DNA from: Candidatus Saccharimonadota bacterium
GTDB taxonomy: Bacteria; Patescibacteriota; Saccharimonadia; Saccharimonadales; OFTM59
Length of the DNA stretch: 64,000 nt
NCBI GenBank assembly: GCA_029260875.1
Contig: JAJDCL010000011.1
Span: forward strand, 62,401-126,400
Direction of reading: 5' to 3'
In this document: positions 9,619-33,343 of the stretch, in pieces
Layout: the number at the start of each line of letters is the position of its first letter
Position numbering within the stretch: the first letter of the stretch is position 1
The notes under the pieces: model-generated
Seen by the model: only the letters and a program-made list of their open reading frames with translations
What the model was told of the DNA's origin: nothing
The model's database searches: none
Made by a program: the position numbers and the translations under genes

Positions 9619-10437
9619 TCAACCCTGATTTATTAATACCTCTGGGATAATTCGGTTGATGCTCTGGATTGAAATTGCACTGCGAGAATTACTGGATGTG
9701 ATGATTGTCGCGTTGAATTGCAAGGGGCCGCCTGTTTCTAGTTCGTTTCGGCTTGGCTGGCTGTTTAGCCACCGTTTGGTTGTGATACTCAACTTAACGC
9801 CAAGGCTGGAGTGCAGGGTGCCACACATGCCTACGTCTGTAATGTGGGCGGTGCCCCTTGGCAAAATCATGGCATCGGCCGTTGGCACGTGCCAATGATC
9901 ACCTATAACGGCTGTCACCCTGCCGTCCAGGTAGTAGCCGATCATACGCTTTTCACTACTGAAATCGCCGTGAAAATTCACAATTGTTGCAGAACGTTCA
10001 TGATTTTTATTATCTACTAAAATTTGATCAATGACTTTCAGCGGGTTATCCATCGGATCATCTGCTTTTTTGCCAACAATACTGCCCCTTAAGCTAATCA
10101 CTAGTACGCTACCTGTAGCGGTGTCAACATACTTACACCCCAGCCCTGGTGTGCCTACTGGGTAATTGGCCGGGCGGATTACAGGCTGCTTGGGATCGTT
10201 AAGTGCAGAGTGAATTTCTGGTAAAAACGTAGTCCAGTCCCCTCCGCTACAAAAATCAATACCCATATCTTTCAGCCGCTGAAAGTCAGCTAGCGAAAGA
10301 CCCTTGCCACCCGTAGTGTTCTCTGCCTGTGCAATCACAAGATCAACGCTGTATTGTTTTTTAATTTCGGGCAAAACTCGCTTAACAACCTTTATGCCTG
10401 GTTCGCCCATTATGTCCCCGATATAGAGAATATTCAT
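9619..10437 (-). CDS. ymdB: YmdB-family metallophosphoesterase (2',3'-cyclic-nucleotide phosphodiesterase-like)
   Basis: The N-terminus MNILYIGDIMGEPG...VIAQAENTTGGKG and GDHWHVPT match the YmdB (TIGR00282) pattern. It lies directly downstream of rny, as in the Bacillus rny-ymdB operon. Confidence 0.7.
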   Translation of the reverse strand: MNILYIGDIMGEPGIKVVKRVLPEIKKQYSVDLVIAQAENTTGGKGLSLADFQRLKDMGIDFCSGGDWTTFLPEIHSALNDPKQPVIRPANYPVGTPGLGCKYVDTATGSVLVISLRGSIVGKKADDPMDNPLKVIDQILVDNKNHERSATIVNFHGDFSSEKRMIGYYLDGRVTAVIGDHWHVPTADAMILPRGTAHITDVGMCGTLHSSLGVKLSITTKRWLNSQPSRNELETGGPLQFNATIITSSNSRSAISIQSINRIIPEVLINQG

Positions 10438-10524
10438 AACTTAATTGTAACCGACTCTTCAGCCGTCAAAGAAATATTGGAGTATGTGATTAGTAATGGT
10501 GAGTGATTACCTATAACTTTAGGG

Positions 10525-10660
10525 GGTCTGCAAGCGCTTCCCCTTTAATCGGCTGCATTGTAAGAAAAGCGAGTAGTTTCAATCCGAATCCGGTCTGCAA
10601 GCGCTCACCAAGAAATCGGCTGCAAGCGATTTCTTGGCTGAAGAGCGCCGGTGAGGATGA
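10525..10660. repeat. Imperfect 67 bp tandem duplication with nested inverted repeats in the rny-ymdB intergenic spacer
   Basis: ggtctgcaagcgct occurs at 10525 and 10592. aatcggctgca occurs at 10547 and 10614. The second unit contains an 11 bp inverted repeat, ccaagaaatcg/cgatttcttgg, nested inside ctcacc/ggtgag. Confidence 0.6.
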
Positions 10661-15901: not shown

Positions 15902-16933
15902 CTAAAGATCCGCTACCTTGCTTGCTGAGTCCATTACTTTCTTAGCAAATTCGTCCATAAGTTTAGGATTTTTTTGTAAATACTCCTTGGCTGCCTCGCG
16001 GCCTTGGCCGATCTTCTCGCCTTTGTAGCTGAACCAAGCACCAGACTTTTCTACGATGTCATGCTTAGCCGCAAGGTCCAATATGTCACCAGCTTTACTT
16101 ATCCCTTCGTTATACATGATGTCGAATTCTGCTTCGCGGAATGGCGGGGCAATCTTATTTTTAACCACCTTTACGCGAGTTCTGTTGCCTATCACTTCGT
16201 CTCCCGCCTTGATCTGACCAATTCGGCGAATATCCATACGCAGGCTGGCGTAGAACTTCAGGGCGTTTCCACCTGTCGTGGTCTCGGGGTTACCAAACAT
16301 AACGCCAATCTTCATACGAATCTGATTAATAAATATAACGGTGGTGTTGCTTCTCGATATAACACCGGTCAGCTTTCGTAAAGCCTGGCTCATTAATCGT
16401 GCCTGAAGCCCCATATGGCTATCGCCCATCTCACCTTCAATCTCAGCCCTGGGCACTAAGGCGGCAACAGAGTCCACCACAATAAGGTCAACCGCGCTGC
16501 TGCGGACAAGTGTTTCGGTAATTTCTAGCGCTTGCTCGCCGTTATCCGGCTGACTGAGCAAAAGGTTGTCCACATCTACGCCAATACGTTTTGCATATGA
16601 GGGGTCTAGGGCGTGTTCTGCATCAATGAACGCCGCTGTACCGCCACGCTTTTGGACTTCTGCAATTGCATGCAATGTCAGCGTAGTCTTGCCCGAGCTC
16701 TCAGGACCGTAAACCTCAATAATGCGCCCTTTTGGGATACCGCCACCAAGGGCCAGGTCTAGCGATACACTGCCAGTAGGCGTGCATTCAACCGCACCTT
16801 GTTGACCTGTGCCAAGTTTCATTATTGAGCCTTTGCCGAACTGTTTTTCAATCTGTTCTAAAGCTAGGTTTAACGCCTTGCTTTTACCATCATTTACACC
16901 CACCGTGCTGTCACCACTGTCTTTTGCAGCCAT
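15902..16933 (-). CDS. recA: Recombinase RecA
   Basis: GPESSGKTT Walker [32 protein letters not shown], and the GNALKFYAS loop. Confidence 0.97.
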
Positions 16934-17046
16934 ATTACCCTCCTCAAGTTGTAGAGTTTAGTATAGCTTGTCGTTAGGGGCCATGACAATGGAGTATCTT
17001 GGTATAGTCTTTATGCTTGTAAGTAGTTATAATCGGTGTAAGTATT

Positions 17047-18801
17047 ATGCGAGTCTCTGATGCCTTTGTTGAGCAACTATTAAAAAAATCCGGCAAGGTC
17101 ACCGACCAACAGCTGGCAGATTTGCGTGAGCAAGAAAAAAACGAAAAAAAGCCACTACAAGATCTGGCTGTTTCATCTAGCCTGATCTCCGAAGCCGAAC
17201 TTACCAAGGCCTACGCAGAAGAGATTGATGTGCCCTTTGTTGAGATAGACACAAAAGCCTTATCTAAAGAACTCTTGCATTTAGTACCCGAACGCATAGC
17301 CAGACAGTACCGTGCGGTTTTATATGGGGTTGATAAGAATGGCAACAAACAGCTAGCAATGGCCGACCCTGACGACGTTCAGGCGATTAGTTTCTTGCAG
17401 AAACAGCTAGGTTCGGACTTAAGAATATATGTGGCAACACAGTCAAACATCTTGACTGCTCTTGATCAATACCGTGGCAATATTGGTACGGAGATCAGTA
17501 AAGTAGTCTCTGAAAGTGACGGCGACGGCGACGGCGACGAAGAGGTTAGTGAAGAGGATCTAGCTGAAGATTCGCCCATTGCTCAGACAGTAAACCTGAT
17601 AATTGAATATGCTGTAAACTCTGGCGCCAGTGATATTCACATTGAACCACGGGAAAAGTTTGTTCAGATTCGCTACCGTATTGACGGCGTTTTGCGAGAG
17701 GCAAACAAGCTGCCAAAGCGGACTTTGGCAGCTATGGTTTCACGTATCAAGATTTTGTCTGGACTTAAGATTGACGAGAGGCGTGTGCCACAGGACGGAC
17801 GCTTCAAGCTGAATATGAACGGCCGTATATTTGCCTTTCGGGTGTCAACCTTGCCTGTGTCCGATGGCGAGAAGGTTGTTATGCGTGTTTTGGATGAATC
17901 GAGCGACCCTTTAACGCTTGAAAAGCTTGGTTTTTGGGGCTTGGCACTTGAGCACATTCAGTCTGCAATCAAGCAGCCGCATGGAATGATTTTAGTTACT
18001 GGTCCGACTGGTTCGGGTAAATCCACAACCCTTCATAGTGTGCTTAACATTTTGAACCGGCCTGATATCAATATTTCTACGGTTGAAGACCCTGTTGAAT
18101 ATCGGCTGGAGGGCGTAAATCAGACACAGACCAACAACACCGCTGGCATGACTTTTGCAAACGGCCTGCGGGCGCTGCTTAGGCAGGACCCTAATGTCAT
18201 TATGGTTGGCGAGATTCGTGACGGCGAGACAGCTGGACTAGCTGTACAGGCGGCTTTGACCGGGCATCTCGTCTTTTCAACACTACACACCAACAATGCT
18301 GCTACGTGTTTGCCACGCCTTCTAGATATGAGTATAGAGCCGTTCCTAATCGCTTCAACTGTGCGCGTCGTAATCGGGCAACGTCTGGTGAGGCGGCTTG
18401 TTCCGGAGGAGTGTGAACAATACACACCAGACGACAAAGAGCGCAAAGAGATTGAGCGAGCTTTTTCCATCAAGACAAACGAGGATTGGAAACGGGTACT
18501 CGAGCTGGCCTCTGAGGCTCAGACCGCGTTTGATAGGCCTAAAACAAGCAAGCTGACCTTTTGGCGTCCGAAAAAGGATCTGGGCGAAGGCCATACAGGC
18601 TATAGGGGCCGAATGGGCATTTACGAGGTCCTCAGCGTATCTACCGAGATACAAAAGATGATTGTGGCAAACGCCACCAGCGAGCAGATCCAGAGCGAGG
18701 CAGTAAAAGAGGGTATGGCAACCATGCAGCTCGATGGACTAATCAAAGCAATGTTGGGCATGACTTCAATAGAAGAAATATTAAGAGTAACCAGGGAATA
18801 G
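17047..18801 (+). CDS. pilB: Type IV pilus assembly ATPase PilB (GspE family)
   Basis: N-terminal T2SSE_N-like domain, Walker A GPTGSGKSTTL, and GspE motifs (RQDPNVIMVGEIRD). It contains an in-frame (GACGGC) repeat that encodes DGDGDGDEE. Confidence 0.9.
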   Translation: MRVSDAFVEQLLKKSGKVTDQQLADLREQEKNEKKPLQDLAVSSSLISEAELTKAYAEEIDVPFVEIDTKALSKELLHLVPERIARQYRAVLYGVDKNGNKQLAMADPDDVQAISFLQKQLGSDLRIYVATQSNILTALDQYRGNIGTEISKVVSESDGDGDGDEEVSEEDLAEDSPIAQTVNLIIEYAVNSGASDIHIEPREKFVQIRYRIDGVLREANKLPKRTLAAMVSRIKILSGLKIDERRVPQDGRFKLNMNGRIFAFRVSTLPVSDGEKVVMRVLDESSDPLTLEKLGFWGLALEHIQSAIKQPHGMILVTGPTGSGKSTTLHSVLNILNRPDINISTVEDPVEYRLEGVNQTQTNNTAGMTFANGLRALLRQDPNVIMVGEIRDGETAGLAVQAALTGHLVFSTLHTNNAATCLPRLLDMSIEPFLIASTVRVVIGQRLVRRLVPEECEQYTPDDKERKEIERAFSIKTNEDWKRVLELASEAQTAFDRPKTSKLTFWRPKKDLGEGHTGYRGRMGIYEVLSVSTEIQKMIVANATSEQIQSEAVKEGMATMQLDGLIKAMLGMTSIEEILRVTRE

Positions 18802-20192: not shown

Positions 20193-20681
20193 ATGTTCAA
20201 GACACTTAAAAAAGCACAAGACGGCTTCACGATTATCGAACTTTTGATCGTAATCGCGATTATTGCTGTTTTGGCAGGGCTCGTACTTAACAACTTCCAG
20301 GGTGCACAGGCAAAGGCTCGTGACACACAACGTTTAACCGACATAAACAACATACACAGTAAACTAGAAGAATTTTACAACGAGAAGGGTTTTTACCCTG
20401 ATACTTTTGAAGCAGATGATTTCCCTGGTATCGACGAGGATAGCCTAATAGACCCTGATGGTGCAGAGATAGTCAAAAGCGCACCAGTGGCTAACGAAGC
20501 TGGAGCTACAGTAGAACCGGACAGTATAGACGAGTACATTTACATACCATTCCCTACGAGCTGTACTACTGTAAACGAAGACTGTGAGGGTTATGTCCTA
20601 AAGTCTTATATCGAAAAGCCAACCGCTTCTACGACAAACCCATATGTCAAAAAGGGATTGAACAACCCTGCAACCCCTTAG
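20193..20681 (+). CDS. pilA: Type IV major pilin (prepilin with class III signal)
   Basis: KKAQDG|FTIIELLIVIAIIAVLAGLV is a prepilin cleavage and methylation motif with Glu5. Confidence 0.8.
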   Translation: MFKTLKKAQDGFTIIELLIVIAIIAVLAGLVLNNFQGAQAKARDTQRLTDINNIHSKLEEFYNEKGFYPDTFEADDFPGIDEDSLIDPDGAEIVKSAPVANEAGATVEPDSIDEYIYIPFPTSCTTVNEDCEGYVLKSYIEKPTASTTNPYVKKGLNNPATP

Positions 20682-24004: not shown

Positions 24005-24415
24005 ATGCTTGTGTTTCGTAACAAACTCTTAAAAGAGTGGCAAGGTTTTACTATTATCGAACTATTAATAGTAATTGCGATATTTGCCATTGTTATGCCC
24101 ACGCTTGCAGCCGGGATAAATAACTTAACAGTATTAAATAATCGCTCTCGTGATTTAGCGCTTGCGAATTTGATCGCCGAAAGTAAGGCCGAGCAACTAC
24201 GCAATGCGGGCTATAATAGCCTTTCGCCAGGCACGGTGAGTTTTAGCGAGGACCTACCAGACGAATTGGCCCCGCCCAAAACTGGCACGTACACAGTTTC
24301 AACCCCAACCCCCGGTTTGGCAGAAATCTCTATTGAAATTAGCTACAGGGATTACAGCCAAACCAAGGTTGTAAAATACAAAACTGTAGTGAGCGAGCTG
24401 GGAGTTGGGCAATGA
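24005..24415 (+). CDS. Minor pilin or pseudopilin (prepilin-type N-terminal domain)
   Basis: KEWQG|FTIIELLIVIAIFAIV. Confidence 0.7.
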   Translation: MLVFRNKLLKEWQGFTIIELLIVIAIFAIVMPTLAAGINNLTVLNNRSRDLALANLIAESKAEQLRNAGYNSLSPGTVSFSEDLPDELAPPKTGTYTVSTPTPGLAEISIEISYRDYSQTKVVKYKTVVSELGVGQ

Positions 24416-25071
24416 AAAAACTCGGCCAAAACGGCGTAACAATCTTCGAACTTTTGATATCGGTTAGCATTGCAGCTATTCTCATCACTGTACTAGTGTC
24501 AGTTTCACTGGGTTTTTACGGCAGCACAATAAGAAGTCAAGTAACAGCAGAGATGGCTATTGACTCACATTTTATGTTACGAGCGATGGTAGAAGATTTG
24601 CGTTTAGGTCGCAACATAGGCGTAACTAGTGTCTTGGCTGACTCAAACGCTCCTAGCGGAGGCTGGGCGACCAGTGACGTTAATAATGTACTTATAATCA
24701 ATAGGCCCGCAACAACCGCAAGTAATGACATCATCTATGACAGCAGCACAGGATACCCCTACAATAATGAGCACATATACTTTATTACGGAGAATAAACT
24801 GCAGAAAAGATTGTTAAAAAATACCAGTGCCGCAGGCAATCACATCACTACTAGTTGCCCGTTATCAGCCTCAAGCAGCACCTGTCCATCTGATAGACTC
24901 TATTCATCATATGTTGATAACATGGCCTTCACATTCTATGATGACAATAATAATATTATAACTGATGTGGCCCTAGCACGGTCCGTAAACATAAACCTTG
25001 TAATGTCGCGCAAGATTTTTGGCAAAACAGTAACTTTTAATAACACAATTCTCACAAAGCTAAGGAACTAA
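24412..25071 (+). CDS. Minor pilin or pseudopilin
   Basis: QNG|VTIFELLISVSIAAILITVLV. It overlaps the upstream minor pilin gene by 4 nt. Confidence 0.6.
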   Translation: MKKLGQNGVTIFELLISVSIAAILITVLVSVSLGFYGSTIRSQVTAEMAIDSHFMLRAMVEDLRLGRNIGVTSVLADSNAPSGGWATSDVNNVLIINRPATTASNDIIYDSSTGYPYNNEHIYFITENKLQKRLLKNTSAAGNHITTSCPLSASSSTCPSDRLYSSYVDNMAFTFYDDNNNIITDVALARSVNINLVMSRKIFGKTVTFNNTILTKLRN

Positions 25072-26521: not shown

Positions 26522-27547
26522 CTATTCAAGGATTGTCTGCTGAGTATTAGTTTTAGATGTCTGCTTTAAATGCTGGTAAGCTTTGGCTGTAACTTTTCGG
26601 CCACGCGGGGTACGTTCTAGAAGCCCGATCTGCATAAGATACGGTTCGTAAAAATCTTCTATGGTCCCACGCTCATCACCCGTTAGCGCTGCTAAAGTTT
26701 CCACGCCAACAGGCCCGCCGTTATGACTTTCAATGATTGCCATCAATAGCATTCTATCGGCTGGGTCCAGGCCCAGCTCATCAATCTCTAGCAGCTCAAG
26801 CGCTTGTAGCCCAGTAGCGTGGTTAATAATCCCATCACCATTTACATCAGCGTAGTCACGCACTCTTTTAAGAAGACGATTGGCAATCCTTGGGGTTAAT
26901 CGAGCACGTACAGCTAGGACTTCAGCGGCTTTTTTGTCTATTTTTATGTTCAGAATCTTAGCAGCCCGTTCAATTATTTTTCTCACCTCATCGGGCTTAT
27001 AAAATTCCAAACGGTGCACGAGACCGAAGCGGTCACGCAAAGGCGCCGCCAATGATCCAGCCCTCGTCGTAGCACCTATCAAAGTAAACTTCGGTAAATC
27101 TAGCCGCAAGCTACGTGCTGAGGGCCCCTTACCGAGCATAATGTCTAGCTTAAAATCTTCCATGGCGCTATAAAGCACCTCTTCAACACTCCTATGTAGG
27201 CGATGAATTTCGTCAATAAACAATATGTCATTGTCTTGAAGATTAGTTAATATGCTAGCCAGATCACCGGCACGCTCAATGGCAGGCCCACTGGTCACAC
27301 GAATCGTTGTGCCCATTTCGTTCGCTATAACTGTTGCCATAGTAGTCTTGCCAAGTCCCGGTGGACCATATAACAAGACGTGGTCTAGTGGTTCGCCCCG
27401 TTTTTTTGCAGCCGATATCGCTAATTGCAGGTTCTGTTTGAGCCTGTCTTGACCAATATAATTAACAAAGTCACGAGGCCGAATAGTCTGCTCTAATTCT
27501 TGCTCGGGCACATCATCTGCAGACGGGTTAACGATTCGTTCAATCAT
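26522..27547 (-). CDS. ruvB: Holliday junction helicase RuvB
   Basis: [22 protein letters not shown], and sensor motifs. Confidence 0.95.
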
Positions 27548-28127
27548 AGCTCACCGCCTTTAGCGCTGCCCTGATTCGCTCTTCGGCAGGCAGCTGAACA
27601 TCGATATTGGTCAGCGCTTTGACTGCGTCAGGCAGAGCATAACCTAAAGCAAGTAACCCTTGTACGGCTTCGTCCTGCTCGGCTTGGGCGCTGCTAACAA
27701 AAAGTGCATCTGTGTCAGCGGTGCTAACAAGCCCAACTTTGTCTTTCAGTTCTACAACTATCCTCTCGGCCACCTTTTTGCCCACACCCGTAGCACTCTG
27801 GATCAACTTGGTGTCTCCTGACGCAATCGCCCGTCGTACAGCATCGGCAGAACCCACACCAAGTACATTCAGCGCCATCTTAGGTCCTACCCCATTCACG
27901 TCTAACAACAGCTCAAACAACTTCTTGGTGCCCAGTTTAGTAAAACCGTATAAATCATGGCTGCTTTCACGTATGTGTTCATATACATAAACCTTTATTG
28001 GATCGCTGACGGTAACCGTAGTAAGGTCTTCAAGTGGCACATAAACACCGTAGCCCACGCCACCAACATCAATTACCAAAATCTCAGCCAGTTTTTCGGC
28101 AACCCTACCACTCAATTTTGCAATCAT
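27540..28127 (-). CDS. ruvA: Holliday junction DNA helicase RuvA
   Basis: MIAKLSGRV...[10 protein letters not shown] and HhH motifs ([11 protein letters not shown]). It overlaps ruvB by 8 nt. Confidence 0.9.
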
Positions 28128-28152
28128 ACCCCATTATCCCACACATCCTGTT

Positions 28153-28173
28153 GCTCAGGGTCCGTCCTTGTGC
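28153..28173 (+). repeat. REP-like motif (left flank of the Y1 transposase)
   Basis: gctcagggtccgtccttgtgc. The core GGTCCGTCCTTG recurs at 28820 and, inverted, at 59457. Confidence 0.6.
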
Positions 28174-28800
28174 ATATACTTAGATATGCCTGGAAAGAAT
28201 ATTATTAAGCATTACGGTGCTGAGCAGTATTATCATATTTATTCTAGAGGGGTTGCTAAGCAGGCGATTTTTCTGGACGATGATGATTATTCCTATCTCT
28301 TGAGCATTTTGAAACGATATATTTCGCGTAAACCCGCACAACAGCCTGGCCACGGCGTTTATCCTCATTACGGAGAACGGCTAACGCTTTTGGCATATTG
28401 TCTTATGCCCAGCCACGTTCACCTACTCGTATACCAAAAAGACCGGCAGGCAATGGCCGAGTTCATGCGTAGCATGATGACAAGCTATAGTATGTATTTC
28501 AACCGAAAATATAAGCGTGTTGGCCCAGTATTTCAAAGCCGCTATAAGGCAAGTCGTATTACCCAAGATAGTTACCTGGAGCATATCTCTCGCTACATTC
28601 ATCTTAACCCAAATAATTGGGTTAATTATCCTTATTCAAGTCTTAAATACTATCTGGGTAATGCAAGGGCTGAATGGATTAGACCAAACAGTATAACCGA
28701 ACTGTTCCCCTCTCCCCAACAATACCTAGAGTTTGTGCAAGACTACGAAGGTCATAAGCAAATGCTGGATGAGATACACTGGGAATTAGCCGATCAATAA
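28168..28800 (+). CDS. IS200/IS605-family Y1 (HuH) tyrosine transposase, RAYT-like
   Basis: YCLMPSHVHLLVY is the HuH motif. YHIYSRGVAKQAIF is the N-terminal beta-strand pattern. RYIHLNPNNW is the catalytic Tyr helix (COG1943-like). Confidence 0.75.
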   Translation: MCIYLDMPGKNIIKHYGAEQYYHIYSRGVAKQAIFLDDDDYSYLLSILKRYISRKPAQQPGHGVYPHYGERLTLLAYCLMPSHVHLLVYQKDRQAMAEFMRSMMTSYSMYFNRKYKRVGPVFQSRYKASRITQDSYLEHISRYIHLNPNNWVNYPYSSLKYYLGNARAEWIRPNSITELFPSPQQYLEFVQDYEGHKQMLDEIHWELADQ

Positions 28801-28819
28801 ATTACGCTTGCTCAAGAAT

Positions 28820-28840
28820 GCTCAAGGTCCGTCCTTGAGC
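28820..28840 (+). repeat. REP-like hairpin motif (right flank of the Y1 transposase)
   Basis: GCTCAAGG-tccgt-CCTTGAGC has a perfect 8 bp stem and the same core as 28153..28173. Confidence 0.65.
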
Positions 28841-28881
28841 AACTTACTTTATGCTTTGTGTAGTCGGACATGGCTTTTTTA

Positions 28882-29364
28882 TTATGTGTTGGGTTGGCGT
28901 TGCATGCTGTGACAGATAGCTGTAGCAAGTGCGTCAGCACAATCATCTGGCGTTGGCACGGTTGTTAGGCCCAACACTACACGAACCATCTCTTGCATTT
29001 GCTTTTTGTCTGCTCGTCCATACCCTGTTAAAGCTTGCTTGATTTGCAATGGTGTATATTCAAAGATTTTCATATTATGCTTCATTCCCAGCAACAAAAC
29101 TACCCCACGAGCTTGCGCTACAGTCATTGCAGTCGTAACATTTTGCGCGAAGAAAAGCTTTTCCACCGCCATTACATCAGGTTTTAATTCTTGAATTACT
29201 TGCTTAAGTTCATCATAGATAATCAGCAGTCTTTCGGCGTCCGGATGTTTAACTGGTGTTCTTATGACCCCAGCGTCAAGCAGCGTCGCCTTGCTATTCG
29301 GTGCCACATCAATAACCCCAAACCCCAGAATCCCTGTCCCTGGATCAATTCCAAGTATATGCAT
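28882..29364 (-). CDS. ruvC: Crossover junction endodeoxyribonuclease RuvC
   Basis: MHILGIDPGTGILGFGVI and an RNase H-like fold with catalytic D/E positions. Confidence 0.9.
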   Translation of the reverse strand: MHILGIDPGTGILGFGVIDVAPNSKATLLDAGVIRTPVKHPDAERLLIIYDELKQVIQELKPDVMAVEKLFFAQNVTTAMTVAQARGVVLLLGMKHNMKIFEYTPLQIKQALTGYGRADKKQMQEMVRVVLGLTTVPTPDDCADALATAICHSMQRQPNT

Positions 29365-30095
29365 CAGTTTTCCAGTAATTCTTCAGGGATATCGAAGTTG
29401 GTGTGAGTGGCTGATACGTCGTCTATGAGTTCGAGCGCATTCATGAGGCGCATGATTTTACCGGCAGTTTCTTTGTCACTAACTTCTATGGTGTTATCTG
29501 GCACGAATGTCAGCTCGGCTTCTAAAACTTCTATACCAGCTTCCCGCAGAGCATCACGAACCTTGGCCAGGTCTTTTGGGCCAGTATAAATAACTGATTC
29601 TTCGCCTTCTTCTTCCATGTCTTCAGCGCCAGCGTCTATAGCCTGAAGCATTAGGTCATCGCCCTTGCCTTTGACGCGGATCATTCCTTTTTGATCGAAC
29701 TGAAATGCAACCGCCCCTTTTTCGGCCATATTGCCACCATGCTTAGAAAATGCCAGCTTAACCTCCGGATACGTACGGTTAACATTATCGGTAGCACACT
29801 CAACCATAATCGCCACACCCCCTGGACCATAGCCCTCATACATCACTTCCTGAATCTGTTCACCGCCCAGCTTGCCACTACCGCGGTCAACTGAACGCTG
29901 TATGTTGGCCATTGGCATATTGGCGGCTTTAGCCTTATCAATCGCCAGCCGCAGCGTAAAGTTCATTTCCGGGTCAGCACCGCCCCGAGCAGCAACTGCT
30001 ATGACATTACCAAGCTTCGTAAAAACCGCACCGCGCGCCGCGTCTTTGGCACCCTTCTGCCGCTTAATGGTTGACCACTTGCTGTGTCCAGACAA
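29364..30095 (-). CDS. yebC: YebC/PmpR-family transcriptional regulator
   Basis: MSGHSKWSTIKRQKGAKDAARG is the YebC signature. The yebC-ruvC linkage is conserved. Confidence 0.9.
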   Translation of the reverse strand: MSGHSKWSTIKRQKGAKDAARGAVFTKLGNVIAVAARGGADPEMNFTLRLAIDKAKAANMPMANIQRSVDRGSGKLGGEQIQEVMYEGYGPGGVAIMVECATDNVNRTYPEVKLAFSKHGGNMAEKGAVAFQFDQKGMIRVKGKGDDLMLQAIDAGAEDMEEEGEESVIYTGPKDLAKVRDALREAGIEVLEAELTFVPDNTIEVSDKETAGKIMRLMNALELIDDVSATHTNFDIPEELLEN

Positions 30096-30109
30096 CGCTT
30101 AAACTCCTA

Positions 30110-31573
30110 CTATTCAATAATATTCTTATCTGTAATGGTACCATATTTGGCCCTCACCTTGCGAGCAAGCACCAACATGCAGACAAGTATCAGGCCGTAT
30201 GCCAACAACATCCCGGTCAAGGACAAGTTAAGCTCAACCTTTGCGTATGGTATACGCGAAAACAGGTTCACCACATCAAGCATATAGGTCATAAGGATCA
30301 CTCCGGGCCAAGCAAAGATACCCGACAAAACGGGCGCCAACATACCACCTACCCCCGCGATCACTGAAAACATCATGGCAAACGGTACAAGGGGCACGAT
30401 CACAGCATTACTAGCCAGGGCTATTAAAGAAGTCTCGCTAAAGATGTAGAGAATCACAGGAGTAACCATAATTTGAGCTGATATGCTTTCTATCACAACT
30501 TGACCCAAGAATTTTTGTTCTTTCATACCAAACATGCGGATCTTTAAAAGAGGGGCTAGAATCAGGACGCCAAAAAACGCCAAAAACGAAAGGCGCCAAC
30601 CTATGTCAGACCATAGATAAACTGGGTTCCAGGCAGCAGTCATTGCTGCCGCTAGAGATATTAACAGCAACGGCTTAAACTTTCTGCCGTAATACCAAGC
30701 CGCCAAGCTTAAACTGGTGACTATTGAAGCCCTTACTATAGAGGCGCTAAAACCAGTCAGCAGCAAGAAGCCCGCCATAAGCACTAGCGAAAGTACAGTT
30801 GATTGATACTTAGAAAGTCGGTTCAACTTACGCCGCACACCCCTGATGATTATAGTCAAGTTGTAGCCAGAAACCGCTATGATATGTGTCAGCCCAACGA
30901 TAGACAATTGCTCGCTCAGATCATCGGGCAAGGTAGTTCTTTGACCTATAAGAATGCCTAGGCCGAACGACGCAAGCGGTTCTGGGAGCGCAGTCTGCAT
31001 ACCCGCTACAAACTTTCGTCGTATAGATTCAACTAATGAGCCACTTCTGCCTACTATCCGAATTTCCGCAAAGCTAATCCTGCCCTGCCGAGCGCCGCCA
31101 GTCGGGTACATCTTGCCACTCACCTCTACAATATCACCCCTGTATACTATCGGCACGCCGCGACCACGGATCTGGAGTTTTCCTGACAATTTTAGGTTTG
31201 TTGGCTTTAAGATTTCTACATGCGACGCATCAAACTCCAACTGTCCGCCATCTGCATAAACTGCATCCGAATCGGCTTGGACGCTGACCGTTAACTCTTC
31301 TCCGTACAGCGTTTCGTATGGCTGAAGTTTATTTAAATATGCCTGCCCCCGCAATATCCCACCGCTGACTCCAAGCAGTAAAGCTGAGGCTAGCAGTATC
31401 AGCGCTTTTCGTCTCCAACTAAAATCAAACATCATAGTTGCGAACAGTAACCAAACTACGTGTAAATCACTACCGCTGCGGGCTAAAGCTAGTCCGGCCA
31501 AAAAGCTCACAAACGTTATAGTAAATATCGTAGTACGTCTAAAACGTATTTTCAGCTTTACATTATTAACCAT
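30110..31573 (-). CDS. comEC: ComEC/Rec2-family competence membrane channel (no beta-lactamase domain)
   Basis: Polytopic membrane protein with the competence-domain motif GLTHIIAVSGYNLTII and an N-terminal DUF4131-like region. Confidence 0.6.
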   Translation of the reverse strand: MVNNVKLKIRFRRTTIFTITFVSFLAGLALARSGSDLHVVWLLFATMMFDFSWRRKALILLASALLLGVSGGILRGQAYLNKLQPYETLYGEELTVSVQADSDAVYADGGQLEFDASHVEILKPTNLKLSGKLQIRGRGVPIVYRGDIVEVSGKMYPTGGARQGRISFAEIRIVGRSGSLVESIRRKFVAGMQTALPEPLASFGLGILIGQRTTLPDDLSEQLSIVGLTHIIAVSGYNLTIIIRGVRRKLNRLSKYQSTVLSLVLMAGFLLLTGFSASIVRASIVTSLSLAAWYYGRKFKPLLLISLAAAMTAAWNPVYLWSDIGWRLSFLAFFGVLILAPLLKIRMFGMKEQKFLGQVVIESISAQIMVTPVILYIFSETSLIALASNAVIVPLVPFAMMFSVIAGVGGMLAPVLSGIFAWPGVILMTYMLDVVNLFSRIPYAKVELNLSLTGMLLAYGLILVCMLVLARKVRAKYGTITDKNIIE

Positions 31574-31941: not shown

Positions 31942-32349
31942 ATGAAACTATTTTGCTCAAATGCGTTCACTGGCGAAGATTTTGAAACGGTCAGTCGGCG
32001 GATGCAATTAGTGGTTGATGCTCTGAATAAATCAGGACATGCAGCCTATTGTCCCATATTTGACCCGCGTAAAATAGAATTGCAAGAACGGCAAGCTGCC
32101 AAAGAGATATTTGATTATGCCTTTCAGAACTTAGCTAAATGCGATGGTATGATAGCAATCGTTACTTCTGACAGAAAAAGCGAAGGTCAGCTAATGGAAA
32201 TTGGAGCAATCCTCGCTGCCAATAAGCCTTTGTATCTATTTGTTCACGATTCAGCAAGAAAGGCTCCTTCACATTTGCATAAACTAGCCGCAAAAGTTTA
32301 TATTTGGTCGTCAGACGAAGACTTAGCTAATAAGCTGGCTAATATATAG
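31942..32349 (+). CDS. Hypothetical protein, possibly with a nucleoside 2-deoxyribosyltransferase-like fold
   Basis: MKLFCSNAFTG...MEIGAILAANKPLYLF loosely fits the PF05014-like pattern. The stretch is visibly AT-rich. Confidence 0.3.
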   Translation: MKLFCSNAFTGEDFETVSRRMQLVVDALNKSGHAAYCPIFDPRKIELQERQAAKEIFDYAFQNLAKCDGMIAIVTSDRKSEGQLMEIGAILAANKPLYLFVHDSARKAPSHLHKLAAKVYIWSSDEDLANKLANI

Positions 32350-32367
32350 CGGCTTATTTAGAGCTAA

Positions 32368-32400
32368 TTTAGTTGCAATAGTTTGCACCTTGCTCCTCCA
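32368..32400 (+). repeat. 33 bp direct repeat, copy 1 (immediately 3' of the gene ending at 32349)
   Basis: tttagttgcaatagtttgcaccttgctcctcca is identical to 33009..33041. Confidence 0.8.
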
Positions 32401-32465: not shown

Positions 32466-33005
32466 ATGAAACCACGCTTTGTATATATTCACGGAAATCA
32501 GTCAACTCATTGGTCATTCGCGTGGGCTACATGGTTAAAAAATGAACTCGAGAAACTAGGCTATGAGACTTTCTTTGAGACGATGCCTGATTCTATCATT
32601 GCTCGCTCCGAGTATTGGCTTCCTTTCTTAAAAGACCACGTTAAAGTCGGAGAGATTGACGTTATAGTCGGCTGGTCATCTGGAGCGGTAGCTGCCATGC
32701 GTTACGCAGAAGAAAATAAGCTTCTCGGCTCCATTTTAGTTTCGCCCTGTTATACGGACTTGGGCGACGACATGGAAAAACAAAGCGGCTACTATGATAA
32801 GCCCTGGAAATGGGATAGCATCAAATCAAACCAGAAGAAAATAGCTCTATTCTGGGGCGATGATGACCCTTATATTCCGCAGTCAGAGTTTAAGTTTATT
32901 GCAGAGCAATTAGCGCCAGAACAAATAAAAGTAGCTGTTGGAAAGCATTTTGTTGAACAATCGGAATTCCCCGAAGTTCTGCAATATATAAAGCAGAATT
33001 ATTAG
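32466..33005 (+). CDS. YdeN/RBBP9-family alpha/beta serine hydrolase
   Basis: YIHGNQSTHWSFAWATWL (HG...HW motif), nucleophile elbow VGWSSGA (GxSxG), and C-terminal Asp/His segments. Confidence 0.65.
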   Translation: MKPRFVYIHGNQSTHWSFAWATWLKNELEKLGYETFFETMPDSIIARSEYWLPFLKDHVKVGEIDVIVGWSSGAVAAMRYAEENKLLGSILVSPCYTDLGDDMEKQSGYYDKPWKWDSIKSNQKKIALFWGDDDPYIPQSEFKFIAEQLAPEQIKVAVGKHFVEQSEFPEVLQYIKQNY

Positions 33006-33008
33006 CTA

Positions 33009-33041
33009 GTTTAGTTGCAATAGTTTGCACCTTGCTCCTCC
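33009..33041 (+). repeat. 33 bp direct repeat, copy 2, followed by a 16 bp-stem hairpin at 33040..33078
   Basis: An identical 33-mer, then ccatataaaagatcta/taggtcttttatatgg. Confidence 0.8.
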
Positions 33042-33343
33042 ATATAAAAGATCTACCCTGCGTAGGTCTTTTATATGGTTGTCTTGGTCGACTTGAACCC
33101 TTGACAGAGATTTTTCTTTAGAAAAATATCGTAGTCGTGAATCGGCGGAGCGAAAGCACACGCAAGTACTTGCACCGAGCATGATTGAGCGGAGAAGGCC
33201 TAAAGCCGCTGTCCCACTGGCCTTACAGTGTAATGACCTCACTGCTAAGTGGGGTCTTTTCATTGGGCCAGAGGCTTGCCTGAAAGAGATAAAAGCCTTA
33301 AGCTTAGTGTGAAGATTTTAATTTAACAATAAAGGAATTCTAC

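What the first reader, a model, noticed from the sequence alone, without database searches (positions are those of the whole stretch)
28153..28840. Y1 (HuH) transposase with REP-like flanks inserted, in opposite orientation, between ruvC and ruvA
The yebC-ruvC-ruvA-ruvB operon on the minus strand is split by a 633 bp plus-strand gene. Its product has the IS200/IS605 signature (YHIYSRG..., CLMPSHVHLLVY, RYIHLNP). The insertion is bracketed by two co-oriented copies of a 21 bp motif (GCTCAGGGTCCGTCCTTGTGC and GCTCAAGGTCCGTCCTTGAGC). The second copy forms a perfect 8 bp-stem hairpin. At 210 aa, with REP-like hairpins and no TnpB partner, it resembles a REP-associated tyrosine transposase (RAYT) rather than a classical IS. 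It also separates ruvC from ruvAB and may insulate or regulate them.
Basis: partly seen in the sequence, partly recalled or inferred. Interest (0 to 1): 0.6.

Follow-up and report, generated by a model that had tools for sequence, protein, structure and literature searches.

The report
Domesticated hairpin-flanked Y1 nuclease beside ruvA
A single-copy, RAYT-like Y1 (HUH) "transposase" gene with matching DNA hairpins on both sides lies between ruvA and ruvC of a Saccharibacteria genome. It is an old, vertically inherited, conserved module, not a recent insertion or an active insertion sequence.

Summary
A + strand gene (28186-28800, 204 aa) lies between ruvA and ruvC and is flanked by two copies of a hairpin (28152-28174 and 28819-28841). 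A third, solo copy lies at 59456-59476.

The protein passes Pfam Y1_Tnp. HUH (H77/H79) and the YIHLNP tyrosine (Y137) are invariant. The best fold match is E. coli TnpA-REP (4ER8).

It is not a recent insertion. Relatives down to 47% identity keep the gene at this site. Y1 divergence tracks RuvA divergence (r = 0.86). dN/dS is 0.07, within the range of its neighbours. Homologue clusters are single-copy.

The hairpins belong to the gene. In 57 of 67 homologue loci the two flanks share at least 12 nt, against 20 of 600 mismatched controls. Stems covary between genomes.

It is not a canonical REP system. There is no GTAG foot, and solo copies are few (about 2.4 per 100 kb; 1-6 strict copies per MAG). 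It also fails the IS200 tests.

The best reading is a domesticated REPtron-like module whose upstream hairpin lies between the divergent, apparently leaderless ruvA and Y1 promoters. Another clade carries the module next to recA, which hints at a link to recombination but does not prove it.

The parts
28186..28800 (+). Y1 (HUH) single-strand DNA nuclease/transposase-like gene, 204 aa (stop included). HUH = H77-V-H79, FQ = 116-117, catalytic Tyr = Y137 in RYIHLNP, SS motif = 151-152.
   Evidence: Pfam Y1_Tnp 43.1 bits. NCBIfam REP_Tyr_transpos 47.8 bits, below its cut-off of 80. These residues are invariant or nearly invariant in 16 homologues. AF2 model pLDDT 84; best PDB fold match is 4ER8. 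dN/dS 0.07 against L001.
28152..28174 (+). Upstream cognate hairpin TGCTCAGGG-TCCGT-CCTTGTGCA (imperfect: one mismatch, one G-T pair). It fills the space between the ruvA and Y1 -10 elements.
   Evidence: It is conserved at the same position in 11-13 ruv-linked relatives, with compensatory stem changes: 89.7% of cells paired against 77.9% in shuffles, 0 of 500 shuffles as high.
28175..28180 (+). -10-like hexamer TATACT, 5 nt before the ATG and with no Shine-Dalgarno sequence. This is the inferred promoter of a leaderless Y1 mRNA.
   Evidence: Columns 35-40 of alignment A3 read TATAMT, with A36, T37 and T40 invariant. A similar element 3-9 nt before the ATG occurs in 32 of 82 family loci by a strict pattern. 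The simple sigma-70 scan did not call it because no -35 is present. No transcript data are available.
28819..28841 (+). Downstream cognate hairpin TGCTCAAGG-TCCGT-CCTTGAGCA (perfect 9-bp stem), 18 nt after the Y1 stop and 40 nt beyond the ruvC stop. It is also terminator-like on the + strand.
   Evidence: -10.5 kcal/mol, z = -4.3. The terminator scan flags it. A matching downstream copy is present in the relatives.
59456..59476 (-). Solo copy of the same hairpin (GCGCAGGG-TCCGT-CCTTGTGT). All 8 stem positions pair if G-T is allowed, on this strand only. It lies in the spacer between divergent genes 58802-59383 (-) and 59732-60760 (+).
   Evidence: The ssDNA fold is -2.5 kcal/mol on the - strand against -0.5 on the + strand.
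28133..28143 (-). Extended -10-like element TGTGGGATAAT, 5 nt before the ruvA ATG. This is the inferred ruvA promoter (leaderless) and is context, not part of the module.
   Evidence: It is conserved upstream of ruvA in Y1-bearing loci. It is also present in relatives that lack the Y1 gene: L118 TGAGATAAT and L120 TGGTACAAT.
27540..28127 (-). ruvA, divergent neighbour of the Y1 gene (58 bp between the two start codons).
   Evidence: Pfam RuvA_N, HHH_5 and RuvA_C.
28882..29364 (-). ruvC, convergent neighbour of the Y1 gene.
   Evidence: Pfam RuvC 173 bits.

Best explanation
This is a domesticated, single-copy, RAYT-like Y1 (HUH) enzyme gene with its own pair of cognate DNA hairpins, a REPtron-like module. 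It became fixed between ruvA and ruvC in an ancestor of this Saccharimonadales lineage and has been inherited vertically since.

Shown:
- The protein has an intact Y1 catalytic core and is under purifying selection as strong as that on its neighbours.
- Both flanks carry the same roughly 23-nt hairpin ([AG]GG, 5-nt loop, CC[CT]). The two copies stay alike within a genome while the stems covary between genomes.
- A few solo copies are scattered elsewhere in the genome.

Inferred:
- By analogy with E. coli TnpA-REP and IS608/ISDra2 TnpA, the enzyme binds the hairpin on single-stranded DNA (for example at the replication fork). It then cuts and rejoins nearby through a 5'-phosphotyrosine link at Y137, with H77/H79 and N141 holding the metal ion.
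- This activity, or selection for recognition by the same protein, keeps the flanking copies matched and occasionally seeds solo copies.
- The upstream hairpin fills the gap between the back-to-back, apparently leaderless ruvA and Y1 promoters. Binding there could repress the Y1 gene and possibly ruvAB.
- The downstream hairpin probably ends Y1 transcription.

The module no longer behaves as a mobile element.
For: Protein identity:
- Y1_Tnp is above its cut-off, and REP_Tyr_transpos is the best NCBIfam model.
- H77, H79, Y137, N141 and P142 are invariant.
- The fold matches 4ER8 at E = 6e-7, then ISDra2 and IS608 TnpA.

Housekeeping-like behaviour:
- 3008 homologue clusters were found. Nearly all are about 204 aa, occur on 1-2 contigs each, and show graded identity.
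- The position and orientation next to ruvA are the same in L001-L009, L038, L039, L063 and L122, covering 90% to 47% identity.
- Y1 identity tracks RuvA identity (r = 0.86, n = 12).
- dN/dS is 0.07, against 0.02-0.12 for eight neighbouring genes.
- Phage and plasmid collections hold nothing closer than 40% identity: one partial phage hit at 40%, plasmid hits at 38% or less.

Hairpins belong to the gene:
- They are present on both sides in every ruv-linked relative.
- Across the family, 57 of 67 loci share at least 12 nt between the two flanks, against 20 of 600 controls.
- Covariation was tested on copies chosen by position, not by pairing: 11 double-change cells against 3.9 expected, 0 of 500 shuffles as high; slid controls give 29-61% paired against 89.7%.

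Dispersal:
- There is a third copy in the window.
- In related loci there are 10 solo copies in 411 kb, where about 0.2 are expected.
- Some Saccharibacteria MAGs carry 3-6 strict copies on separate contigs.
Against: - No biochemical or transcript data exist for this family. Binding, cleavage, autoregulation and leaderless starts are all inferred.
- The source genome was not in the scanned collections, so its full hairpin count is unknown.
- Hairpin numbers are far lower than in classical REP/RAYT systems, and the closest relative's MAG (OFTM277) has only the two flanking copies under the strict pattern. Ongoing dispersal is therefore weak at best.
- The loop orientation of the flanking copies varies between genomes (direct here, inverted elsewhere). 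No single strand-specific end geometry like that of IS200/IS605 holds.
- The sigma-70 scan did not call the proposed Y1 promoter.
Confidence: 0.72

Rival explanations
1. The enzyme has been recruited into homologous recombination or natural transformation. It would act on single-stranded DNA or hairpin/cruciform structures together with RecA/RuvABC, or control their expression through the hairpin in their promoter regions. On this view its position beside ruvA is functional, not accidental.
For: - The Y1-ruvA adjacency survives rearrangements. Extra genes are inserted between ruvA and ruvB, between ruvC and yebC, or between Y1 and ruvC (L003, L006, L007, L008).
- In L023 the module lies between ruvA and ruvB.
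- In L089 the gene is inverted but the hairpin pair stays next to the ruvA promoter.
- A separate clade of nine loci (45-53% identity) carries the module directly upstream of recA, between pilB and recA.
- All these sites lie in one neighbourhood that holds type IV pilus genes, recA, ruvABC and comEC.
- The upstream hairpin lies between the ruvA and Y1 -10 elements.
Against: - Other clades sit beside unrelated genes: DedA/L25, FAD oxidase/Kelch, PRTase/ClpB-like, and unknowns.
- recA and ruv lie only 10 kb apart in these small syntenic genomes, so local hopping followed by vertical inheritance would give the same picture.
- Lineages close to the window (L118, L120) have lost the gene while keeping ruvABC and a ruvA promoter.
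- No formal enrichment test was run over all contexts.
Confidence: 0.15
2. It is an autonomous IS200-like insertion sequence of about 0.7 kb with left and right end hairpins. It recently transposed into the ruvC-ruvA spacer and split the operon.
For: - The size (about 690 bp from hairpin to hairpin) and the layout of hairpin, gene, hairpin, co-oriented in this window, resemble IS200.
- A relative with an uninterrupted ruvC-ruvA junction exists.
- Different clades occupy different sites, so the module did move at some time.
Against: - The gene is single-copy here, and each homologue cluster occurs on 1-2 contigs.
- The site and orientation are the same across relatives down to 47% identity, and the gene co-diverges with ruvA.
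- The dS between window and L001 (0.74) is of the same order as for neighbouring genes (0.92-2.46), so the gene is not a recent arrival.
- The IS200 NCBIfam model scores 13.7 bits against a cut-off of 55.
- The Y motif is Y---NP, not Y---Q (PMC6006769).
- Hairpin orientation is not fixed.
Confidence: 0.03
3. The Y1 gene is an inert relic, and the hairpins are ordinary regulatory or terminator palindromes that merely happen to flank it.
For: - The downstream hairpin is terminator-like.
- The upstream one lies in a promoter region.
- The copy number is low.
Against: - The catalytic residues are invariant and dN/dS is 0.07 over the whole length.
- The two flanking copies are matched within each genome but differ between genomes, in 85% of 67 loci across very different genomic contexts. 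Unrelated terminators and operators would not be expected to behave this way.
- Identical solo copies occur elsewhere in the genomes, some inside ORFs.
Confidence: 0.05

Closest known systems
REP-associated tyrosine transposases (RAYT / TnpA-REP) in REPtrons, e.g. E. coli TnpA-REP (PDB 4ER8); TnpAY1 class 2 of Quentin et al. 2018 (PMC6006769); RAYT groups of Bertels et al. 2017 (PMC5581495)
   Same: - It has the Y1/HUH fold, and 4ER8 is its best structural match.
- It carries the class-2 Y---NP motif and the SS motif after the tyrosine.
- It is single-copy, vertically inherited and evolves like a housekeeping gene.
- The gene is flanked by cognate hairpins that also occur as dispersed solo copies.
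- Pairs of inverted hairpins resembling REPINs occur upstream in several relatives: L002, L008, L039, L063, L071, L086.
   Different: - It scores below the NCBIfam REP_Tyr_transpos cut-off (47.8 against 80).
- There is no GT[AG]G tetranucleotide at the hairpin foot.
- The hairpin is short, with a 9-10-bp stem and a 5-nt loop.
- Copies number a few to perhaps tens per genome, not 100 or more.
- Some copies are intragenic.
- In this window the flanking copies are direct, not inverted.
TnpAY1 subclass 2.1 (Bertels group 1; 'TIRYT' of Di Nocera et al. 2013, PMC3733652)
   Same: - The motifs match the second 2.1 signature in Table 1 of PMC6006769: NH[VI]H (SHVH in the window), FQ, Y[IV]HLNP and an SS tail motif.
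- The nearest non-CPR relatives (about 30% identity, from plasmid records) are Y1 proteins with a Bac_DnaA_C-like HTH, the 2.1 architecture.
- Flanking repeats are of low abundance, as reported for group 1 (12 occurrences).
   Different: - It lacks the C-terminal DnaA-like HTH domain (204 aa against a median of 238).
- It has a roughly 15-residue insertion before the HUH strand.
- Subclass 2.1 was reported to have no REP-like hairpins, whereas this family is flanked by clear hairpins. These are not GGGGWSAS-type terminal inverted repeats.
IS200 (IS200/IS605 family, TnpA only)
   Same: It is a unit of about 0.7 kb with one Y1 gene and a hairpin near each end, the upstream one overlapping the gene's own expression signals. 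This comparison with IS200 rests on background knowledge.
   Different: - The Y motif is Y---NP, not Y---Q.
- The IS200 model scores 13.7 bits against a cut-off of 55.
- It is single-copy, immobile over long evolutionary time, and has no near-identical copies.

Membership tests
Y1 HUH superfamily (Pfam PF01797 Y1_Tnp) | Profile match above the curated cut-off | tested here: met
   43.1 bits against a cut-off of 23.
Y1 HUH superfamily (Pfam PF01797 Y1_Tnp) | HUH motif and a single catalytic tyrosine on the following helix; Y1 fold | tested here: met
   H77-V-H79 and Y137 are invariant in 16 homologues. The AF2 model (pLDDT 84) matches 4ER8, ISDra2 and IS608 TnpA at E = 6e-7 to 1e-4.
Y1 HUH superfamily (Pfam PF01797 Y1_Tnp) | Site-specific cleavage and joining of single-stranded DNA | not testable with these tools
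   This needs an in vitro assay with hairpin oligonucleotides.
RAYT / TnpA-REP (TnpAY1 class 2) in a REPtron | Class-2 tyrosine motif Y---NP | tested here: met
   Y137-I-H-L-N141-P142, invariant. The definition is from PMC6006769.
RAYT / TnpA-REP (TnpAY1 class 2) in a REPtron | NCBIfam equivalog model REP_Tyr_transpos above its cut-off | tested here: not met
   47.8 bits against a cut-off of 80. It is the best-scoring model but falls below the threshold.
RAYT / TnpA-REP (TnpAY1 class 2) in a REPtron | One copy per genome, vertical inheritance, evolution like a housekeeping gene | tested here: met
   The window holds one copy. Homologue clusters occur on 1-2 contigs. Synteny holds down to 47% identity. 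r = 0.86 with RuvA. dN/dS 0.07. A closed genome was not available.
RAYT / TnpA-REP (TnpAY1 class 2) in a REPtron | Gene flanked on both sides by its cognate palindromic repeats | tested here: met
   In 57 of 67 loci the flanks share at least 12 nt, against 20 of 600 controls. Covariation is shown.
RAYT / TnpA-REP (TnpAY1 class 2) in a REPtron | The same repeat is abundant (tens to hundreds of copies) in extragenic space | tested here: inconclusive
   There is 1 solo copy in 64 kb here, and 2.4 per 100 kb in related loci against about 0.05 expected. MAGs carry 1-6 strict copies. The repeat is dispersed but in low copy, and some copies fall inside ORFs. The whole source genome could not be obtained.
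RAYT / TnpA-REP (TnpAY1 class 2) in a REPtron | Canonical REP: 5' GT[AG]G tetranucleotide at the foot of the hairpin | tested here: not met
   The sequence 5' of the stems is unconserved (e.g. CTGT|TGCTCAGGG, AGAA|TGCTCAAGG). No GTAG or GTGG is present. Subclasses 2.6 and 3 also lack it.
TnpAY1 subclass 2.1 (Bertels group 1 / TIRYT) | Motif set NH[VYF]H, W[EQ] or FQ, YIELNP or Y[IV]HLNP, SS tail | tested here: met
   The family consensus is NH[VI]HL (SHVHL in the window), with F116-Q117, YIHLNP and S151-S152, compared with Table 1 of PMC6006769. This is a motif comparison only. No tree was built with reference 2.1 sequences.
TnpAY1 subclass 2.1 (Bertels group 1 / TIRYT) | Conserved C-terminal HTH domain (Bac_DnaA_C / HTH_23 / HTH_28-like) | tested here: not met
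   Pfam finds no hit beyond Y1_Tnp at E < 0.01. The protein ends about 60 residues after the tyrosine, and the tail is modelled as one long helix. Plasmid-borne relatives of 287-295 aa do have Bac_DnaA_C.
TnpAY1 subclass 2.1 (Bertels group 1 / TIRYT) | No REP-like hairpins; flanked by terminal inverted repeats (GGGGWSAS type) | tested here: not met
   Clear hairpins flank the gene, and no GGGGWSAS motif is present.
IS200/IS605 insertion sequences (TnpAY1 subclass 1.1) | Tyrosine motif Y---Q; IS200 equivalog model above its cut-off | tested here: not met
   The motif is Y---NP. NF033573 scores 13.7 bits against a cut-off of 55.
IS200/IS605 insertion sequences (TnpAY1 subclass 1.1) | Several near-identical copies per genome; variable insertion sites among close relatives | tested here: not met
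IS200/IS605 insertion sequences (TnpAY1 subclass 1.1) | Subterminal hairpins at both ends on the same strand | tested here: inconclusive
   The copies are co-oriented in the window, L003, L007, L054 and L110. They are inverted or mixed in L002, L038, L039, L042, L047 and L057.

The most novel reading that the evidence does not exclude
In Saccharibacteria this Y1 enzyme is no longer a repeat-spreading element. It would instead be a host factor tied to homologous recombination or natural transformation. The enzyme and its hairpin would sit in the control regions of ruvA(B) in one clade and recA in another, inside the pilus/recA/ruv/comEC neighbourhood. There they would either sense or process single-stranded or cruciform DNA, or regulate the recombination genes. 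That would be the first assigned cellular role for a group-1-like domesticated Y1 transposase.
Probability: 0.12. Interest if true: 0.65.

Novelty: new member of a known kind. Interest (0 to 1): 0.36.

Why it matters
RAYT-like Y1 genes are the textbook case of domesticated bacterial transposases, but their cellular role is still unknown. This case adds a large, previously undescribed branch: more than 3000 sequence clusters, mostly from Saccharimonadales (candidate phyla radiation).

Its layout is unusually clean and compact: hairpin, -10 element, leaderless gene, hairpin. The position is stable next to ruvA. The proteins carry subclass-2.1-type motifs, a group previously reported to lack hairpin repeats.

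The genomes are tiny and the hairpin family is small, and some Saccharibacteria are now genetically tractable. The cost or benefit of such a module, and the recurring placement beside ruvA and recA, could therefore be tested directly.

For annotation, the gene should not be read as evidence of a recent insertion or of an active IS.

Tried and rejected
- Exact look-ups of the window protein (204-aa and 210-aa forms) to recover the source contig found nothing. The listing of cluster members gave no accession for it.
About a third of its 28 hits fall in unrelated high-GC genomes and are taken as chance matches.
- A sequence search of the PDB with the single protein found nothing. The family profile gave only a marginal ISDra2 hit (E = 0.03). 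The fold search was needed.
- Rfam found nothing in 27500-29500, so no known RNA family explains the hairpins.
- The simple sigma-70 scan did not call the proposed Y1 or ruvA promoters. They rest on conserved -10 elements only.
- I considered that the outward-facing ATTATCCCACA element was part of the module and supplies ruvA with a promoter. I rejected this because relatives without the module keep an equivalent extended -10 before ruvA, and non-ruv loci mostly lack it (13 of 82).
- I considered that the L098 neighbour was a ComF-type competence protein. NCBIfam shows only generic phosphoribosyltransferase similarity.
- I considered a DNA-uptake-sequence role for the hairpin. I rejected it as unlikely because copies are far too few.
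- Phage and plasmid collections hold only distant relatives: one partial phage hit at 40% identity and plasmid hits at 38% or less.
Full report
**1. What is in the window**

On the - strand lie ruvB (26522-27547), ruvA (27540-28127), ruvC (28882-29364) and yebC (29364-30095). All have strong Pfam matches. Between ruvA and ruvC, on the + strand, is an ORF listed as 28168-28800 (TTG start, 210 aa).

Nearly all of its roughly 3000 homologues are 204-205 aa and start MPG[KR]N. The real start is therefore ATG 28186, and the TTG lies inside the upstream hairpin.

- The downstream copy is a perfect 9-bp stem with loop TCCGT. As ssDNA it folds at -10.5 kcal/mol, z = -4.3.
- The upstream copy is imperfect (-4.1 kcal/mol, z = -2.8).
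- A third copy of the 12-nt core lies at 59459-59470 on the - strand, in a 348-bp spacer between divergent genes. That makes three copies where 0.13 are expected.

In copies 1 and 3 the departures from Watson-Crick pairing are mainly G-T pairs on the strand that reads GGTCCGTCC, plus one T-T mismatch in copy 1. That strand therefore folds better than its complement.

The window has no second Y1 gene and only five perfect hairpins of 9 bp or more.

**2. The protein**

Sequence evidence:
- Pfam Y1_Tnp scores 43.1 bits against a cut-off of 23.
- Among NCBIfam models the best is REP_Tyr_transpos (47.8 bits, below its cut-off of 80). The IS200 model scores only 13.7.
- In an alignment of 16 homologues (54-90% identity) the HUH histidines (H77, H79), F116-Q117, Y137-I-H-L-N-P and the SS pair at 151-152 are invariant or nearly so. 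Conservation runs over the whole length.

Structure evidence:
- A phmmer search of PDB sequences found nothing.
- An AlphaFold model (pLDDT 84) matches E. coli TnpA-REP bound to a REP hairpin best (4ER8, E = 6e-7). ISDra2, IS608 and IS200 transposases follow.

Classification, using Quentin et al. 2018 (PMC6006769):
- Y---NP defines class 2, the RAYT-like class.
- The set NH[VI]H / FQ / Y[IV]HLNP / SS is the signature of subclass 2.1, which equals Bertels group 1.
- The nearest relatives outside the candidate phyla radiation (about 30% identity, on plasmid records) are 287-295-aa Y1 proteins with a Bac_DnaA_C-like HTH, the 2.1 architecture.
- The window protein lacks that domain and has a roughly 15-residue insertion before the HUH strand. 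It is a distinct branch related to 2.1.

**3. It is old and vertically inherited, not a recent insertion**

- The homologue clusters each occur on 1-2 contigs and show a smooth decline in identity.
- In every relative whose context could be read, the gene is divergent from ruvA and convergent with ruvC. This holds for L001 (90%), L002 (73%), L003 (69%), L006 (64%), L007 (60%) and L008 (58%). It also holds for L038, L039 and L063 (47%) and for L122 (53%).
- The arrangement survives the insertion of other genes between ruvA and ruvB, between ruvC and yebC, or between the Y1 gene and ruvC.
- Y1 identity tracks RuvA identity (r = 0.86, n = 12).
- Between the window and L001, dN/dS is 0.07 for Y1 and 0.02-0.12 for eight neighbours. 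The dS for Y1 (0.74) is at the low end of the neighbours' range (0.92-2.46) but of the same order.
- Only distant relatives occur in phage and plasmid collections.

Two lineages lack the gene:
- L118/L119 (RuvA 71%, RuvB 85%, RuvC 81%, closer than most Y1-bearing relatives) have an uninterrupted 59-bp ruvC-ruvA junction with no hairpin remnant.
- L120 also lacks the gene.

Given the distribution, loss is the simplest reading.

**4. The hairpins belong to the gene**

Within the ruv-linked group:
- All ruv-linked relatives have the hairpin on both sides of the gene.
- Within a genome the two copies are nearly identical.
- Between genomes the stems change in a compensating way: CTCAAGG/CCTTGAG, CTAAGGG/CCTCTAG, CTCCGGG/CCCGGAG, CTGCGGG/CCTCCAG. 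The top GG/CC pairs and, in this clade, the loop stay fixed.

A covariation test used upstream copies chosen only by their position before the ATG (alignment A3):
- 89.7% of cells pair, against 77.9% in shuffles (0 of 500 as high).
- There are 11 double-change cells, against 3.9 expected (0 of 500).
- Slid controls give 29-61% paired.

Across 80 more distant homologues from metagenomes (40-68% identity):
- In 57 of 67 loci with both flanks available, the flanks share an exact match of at least 12 nt.
- The figure is 20 of 600 when the flanks of different loci are paired.
- The common design is 5-7 variable stem pairs, [AG]GG, a 5-nt loop, then CC[CT].
- Loops are specific to lineage: TCCGT, ACTGT, TCGCA, TCTGA, TGGCA, TTGGA, CCGGG, TACGA, ATTAT.

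Matched flanks that differ between lineages are what is expected of sites recognised by the enclosed enzyme. Unrelated terminators or operators would not behave this way.

**5. Dispersal is real but low**

- Besides the solo copy in the window, related loci contain 10 solo copies of their own 11-mer in 411 kb. That is 2.4 per 100 kb, against about 0.05 expected.
- A scan of one genome per species with GCNCARGGTCCGTCCTTGNG found 28 stretches. Saccharibacteria MAGs have 1-6 strict copies: six on four contigs in CAZKHR01, three on three contigs in JBARSV01, and only the two flanking copies in OFTM277, the closest relative.
- Beyond the roughly 25-nt palindrome the flanks of solo copies are unrelated.
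- Several solo copies fall inside long ORFs.
- There is no GT[AG]G foot.

This is therefore not a canonical high-copy REP family. It resembles the 'atypical secondary structures' and low counts reported for some other class-2 subclasses.

**6. Local anatomy and likely working**

The 58 bp between the two start codons hold, in order:
- the reverse complement of TGTGGGATAAT (28133-28143), an extended -10 five nt before the ruvA ATG;
- the hairpin (28152-28174);
- TATACT (28175-28180), five nt before the Y1 ATG, with no Shine-Dalgarno sequence.

Conservation of these elements:
- The TATAMT box is conserved directly after the hairpin in the ruv-linked clade and is common in the family.
- The ruvA element is conserved with or without the Y1 gene. 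ruvAB therefore has its own promoter, and the module is not what uncouples it from ruvC.

I infer two back-to-back leaderless promoters with the hairpin between them. A protein bound there could repress Y1 and perhaps ruvAB.

The downstream hairpin is flagged as terminator-like on the + strand.

By analogy with TnpA-REP and IS608/ISDra2 TnpA (background knowledge and PMC6006769), the enzyme should recognise the folded hairpin on single-stranded DNA. It would then cut and rejoin through Y137. This step is inferred and has not been shown.

Loop orientation varies between genomes. In L089 the whole gene is inverted between its hairpins while the hairpin pair stays beside the ruvA promoter. Recombination or template switching at the palindromes would explain this.

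**7. A recurring neighbourhood**

- In L023 the module lies between ruvA and ruvB.
- In nine loci of another clade (L042, L047, L048, L051, L052, L054, L055, L058, L067) it lies between pilB and recA, directly upstream of recA.
- In the window, recA (15902-16933, -) and pilB (17047-18801, +) are divergent neighbours with an empty 113-bp spacer, 10 kb from the Y1 site.
- Other clades sit beside unrelated genes.

This may reflect short-range moves within one conserved pilus/recA/ruv/comEC region, followed by vertical inheritance. It may instead reflect a functional tie to recombination. I rate the functional tie at about 0.12-0.15.

**8. Comparison and verdict**

- The module works like a REPtron: a RAYT plus its cognate palindromes.
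- It meets the class-2 sequence definition, the single-copy and vertical-inheritance criteria, and the flanking-repeat criterion.
- It fails the equivalog cut-off and the GTAG criterion. It does not clearly meet the high-copy criterion.
- Its motifs are 2.1-like, but it lacks the 2.1 HTH domain and has hairpins, which 2.1 was reported not to have.
- It fails the IS200 tests.
- A search of the held literature found no description of this family in Saccharibacteria or Patescibacteria.

I file it as a new member of a known kind, the domesticated RAYT-like Y1 genes. It is of moderate interest, with a minority reading (a link to recombination) that would be more interesting if true.

Noticed in passing
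L042, L047, L048, L051, L052, L054, L055, L058, L067 (Y1 at about 10001-10615 in the long loci); window 15902-18801: A second clade of the family (45-53% identity) carries the hairpin-flanked Y1 gene between pilB and recA, directly upstream of recA. In the window the recA-pilB spacer (16934-17046) is empty.
   Followed up: partly
L118/L119 3942-4000; L120 3480-4000: These relatives are closer to the window by RuvA/B/C than most Y1-bearing genomes, yet they lack the Y1 gene. L118 has a clean 59-bp ruvC-ruvA junction with no hairpin remnant but with a ruvA extended -10 (TGAGATAAT).
   Followed up: yes
L001 10665-11390 and 11433: In the closest relative (90% identity), two IS1595-family DDE transposase fragments lie between the Y1 stop and the downstream hairpin. 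The hairpin is displaced by about 0.8 kb but retained.
   Followed up: no
L089 604-1345: The Y1 gene is inverted relative to ruvA (co-directional, upstream). An inverted pair of hairpins remains directly before the ruvA promoter GTGTGGGATAATGG. This suggests inversion between the flanking palindromes.
   Followed up: partly
L023 4817-7173: The module lies between ruvA and ruvB instead of between ruvC and ruvA. ruvB there has its own TGAGATAAT element next to a hairpin.
   Followed up: partly
L105 8907-9603; L112 7887-8597: Copies of the cognate 11-mer (AGGTTGGACCT) occur inside the Y1 coding region as well as at both ends. This recalls the in-frame REP insertions described for subclass 2.4.
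   Followed up: no
L018 1643-1662 (inside an 1128-aa ORF); L028 5129-5148 (inside a 501-aa ORF); also L013, L015, L019, L026: Several solo hairpin copies in Saccharibacteria MAGs fall inside long ORFs, not in intergenic DNA. The ORF calling was naive, and whether the insertions are in frame was not checked.
   Followed up: no
L053 4126-4728 and 5074-5682: Two Y1 homologues (each about 50% identical to the window protein) lie in tandem on one contig.
   Followed up: no
window 28127 and 28186; relatives in alignment A3: Both ruvA and the Y1 gene have a conserved -10 element 5-9 nt before the start codon and no Shine-Dalgarno sequence. This suggests leaderless mRNAs in this lineage.
   Followed up: partly
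window 32341-32400 and 32983-33042: A 60-nt direct repeat (83% identical) starts at or just before the stop codons of two consecutive + strand genes (31942-32349 and 32466-33005) and extends downstream of them. Its nature is unknown.
   Followed up: no
window 20223-20266, 24044-24087, 24433-24476: A 44-nt repeat family corresponds to the N-terminal prepilin (N_methyl) segment of several type IV pilin genes in the pilus cluster upstream of ruvB.
   Followed up: no
window 26522-31573 compared with L001: Synonymous divergence from the closest relative is lowest for the Y1 gene (dS 0.74) and ruvA (0.92). For ruvB, ruvC, yebC, comEC and two pilus-cluster ORFs it is 1.07-2.46. This could be noise or could reflect extra constraint around the shared control region.
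   Followed up: no
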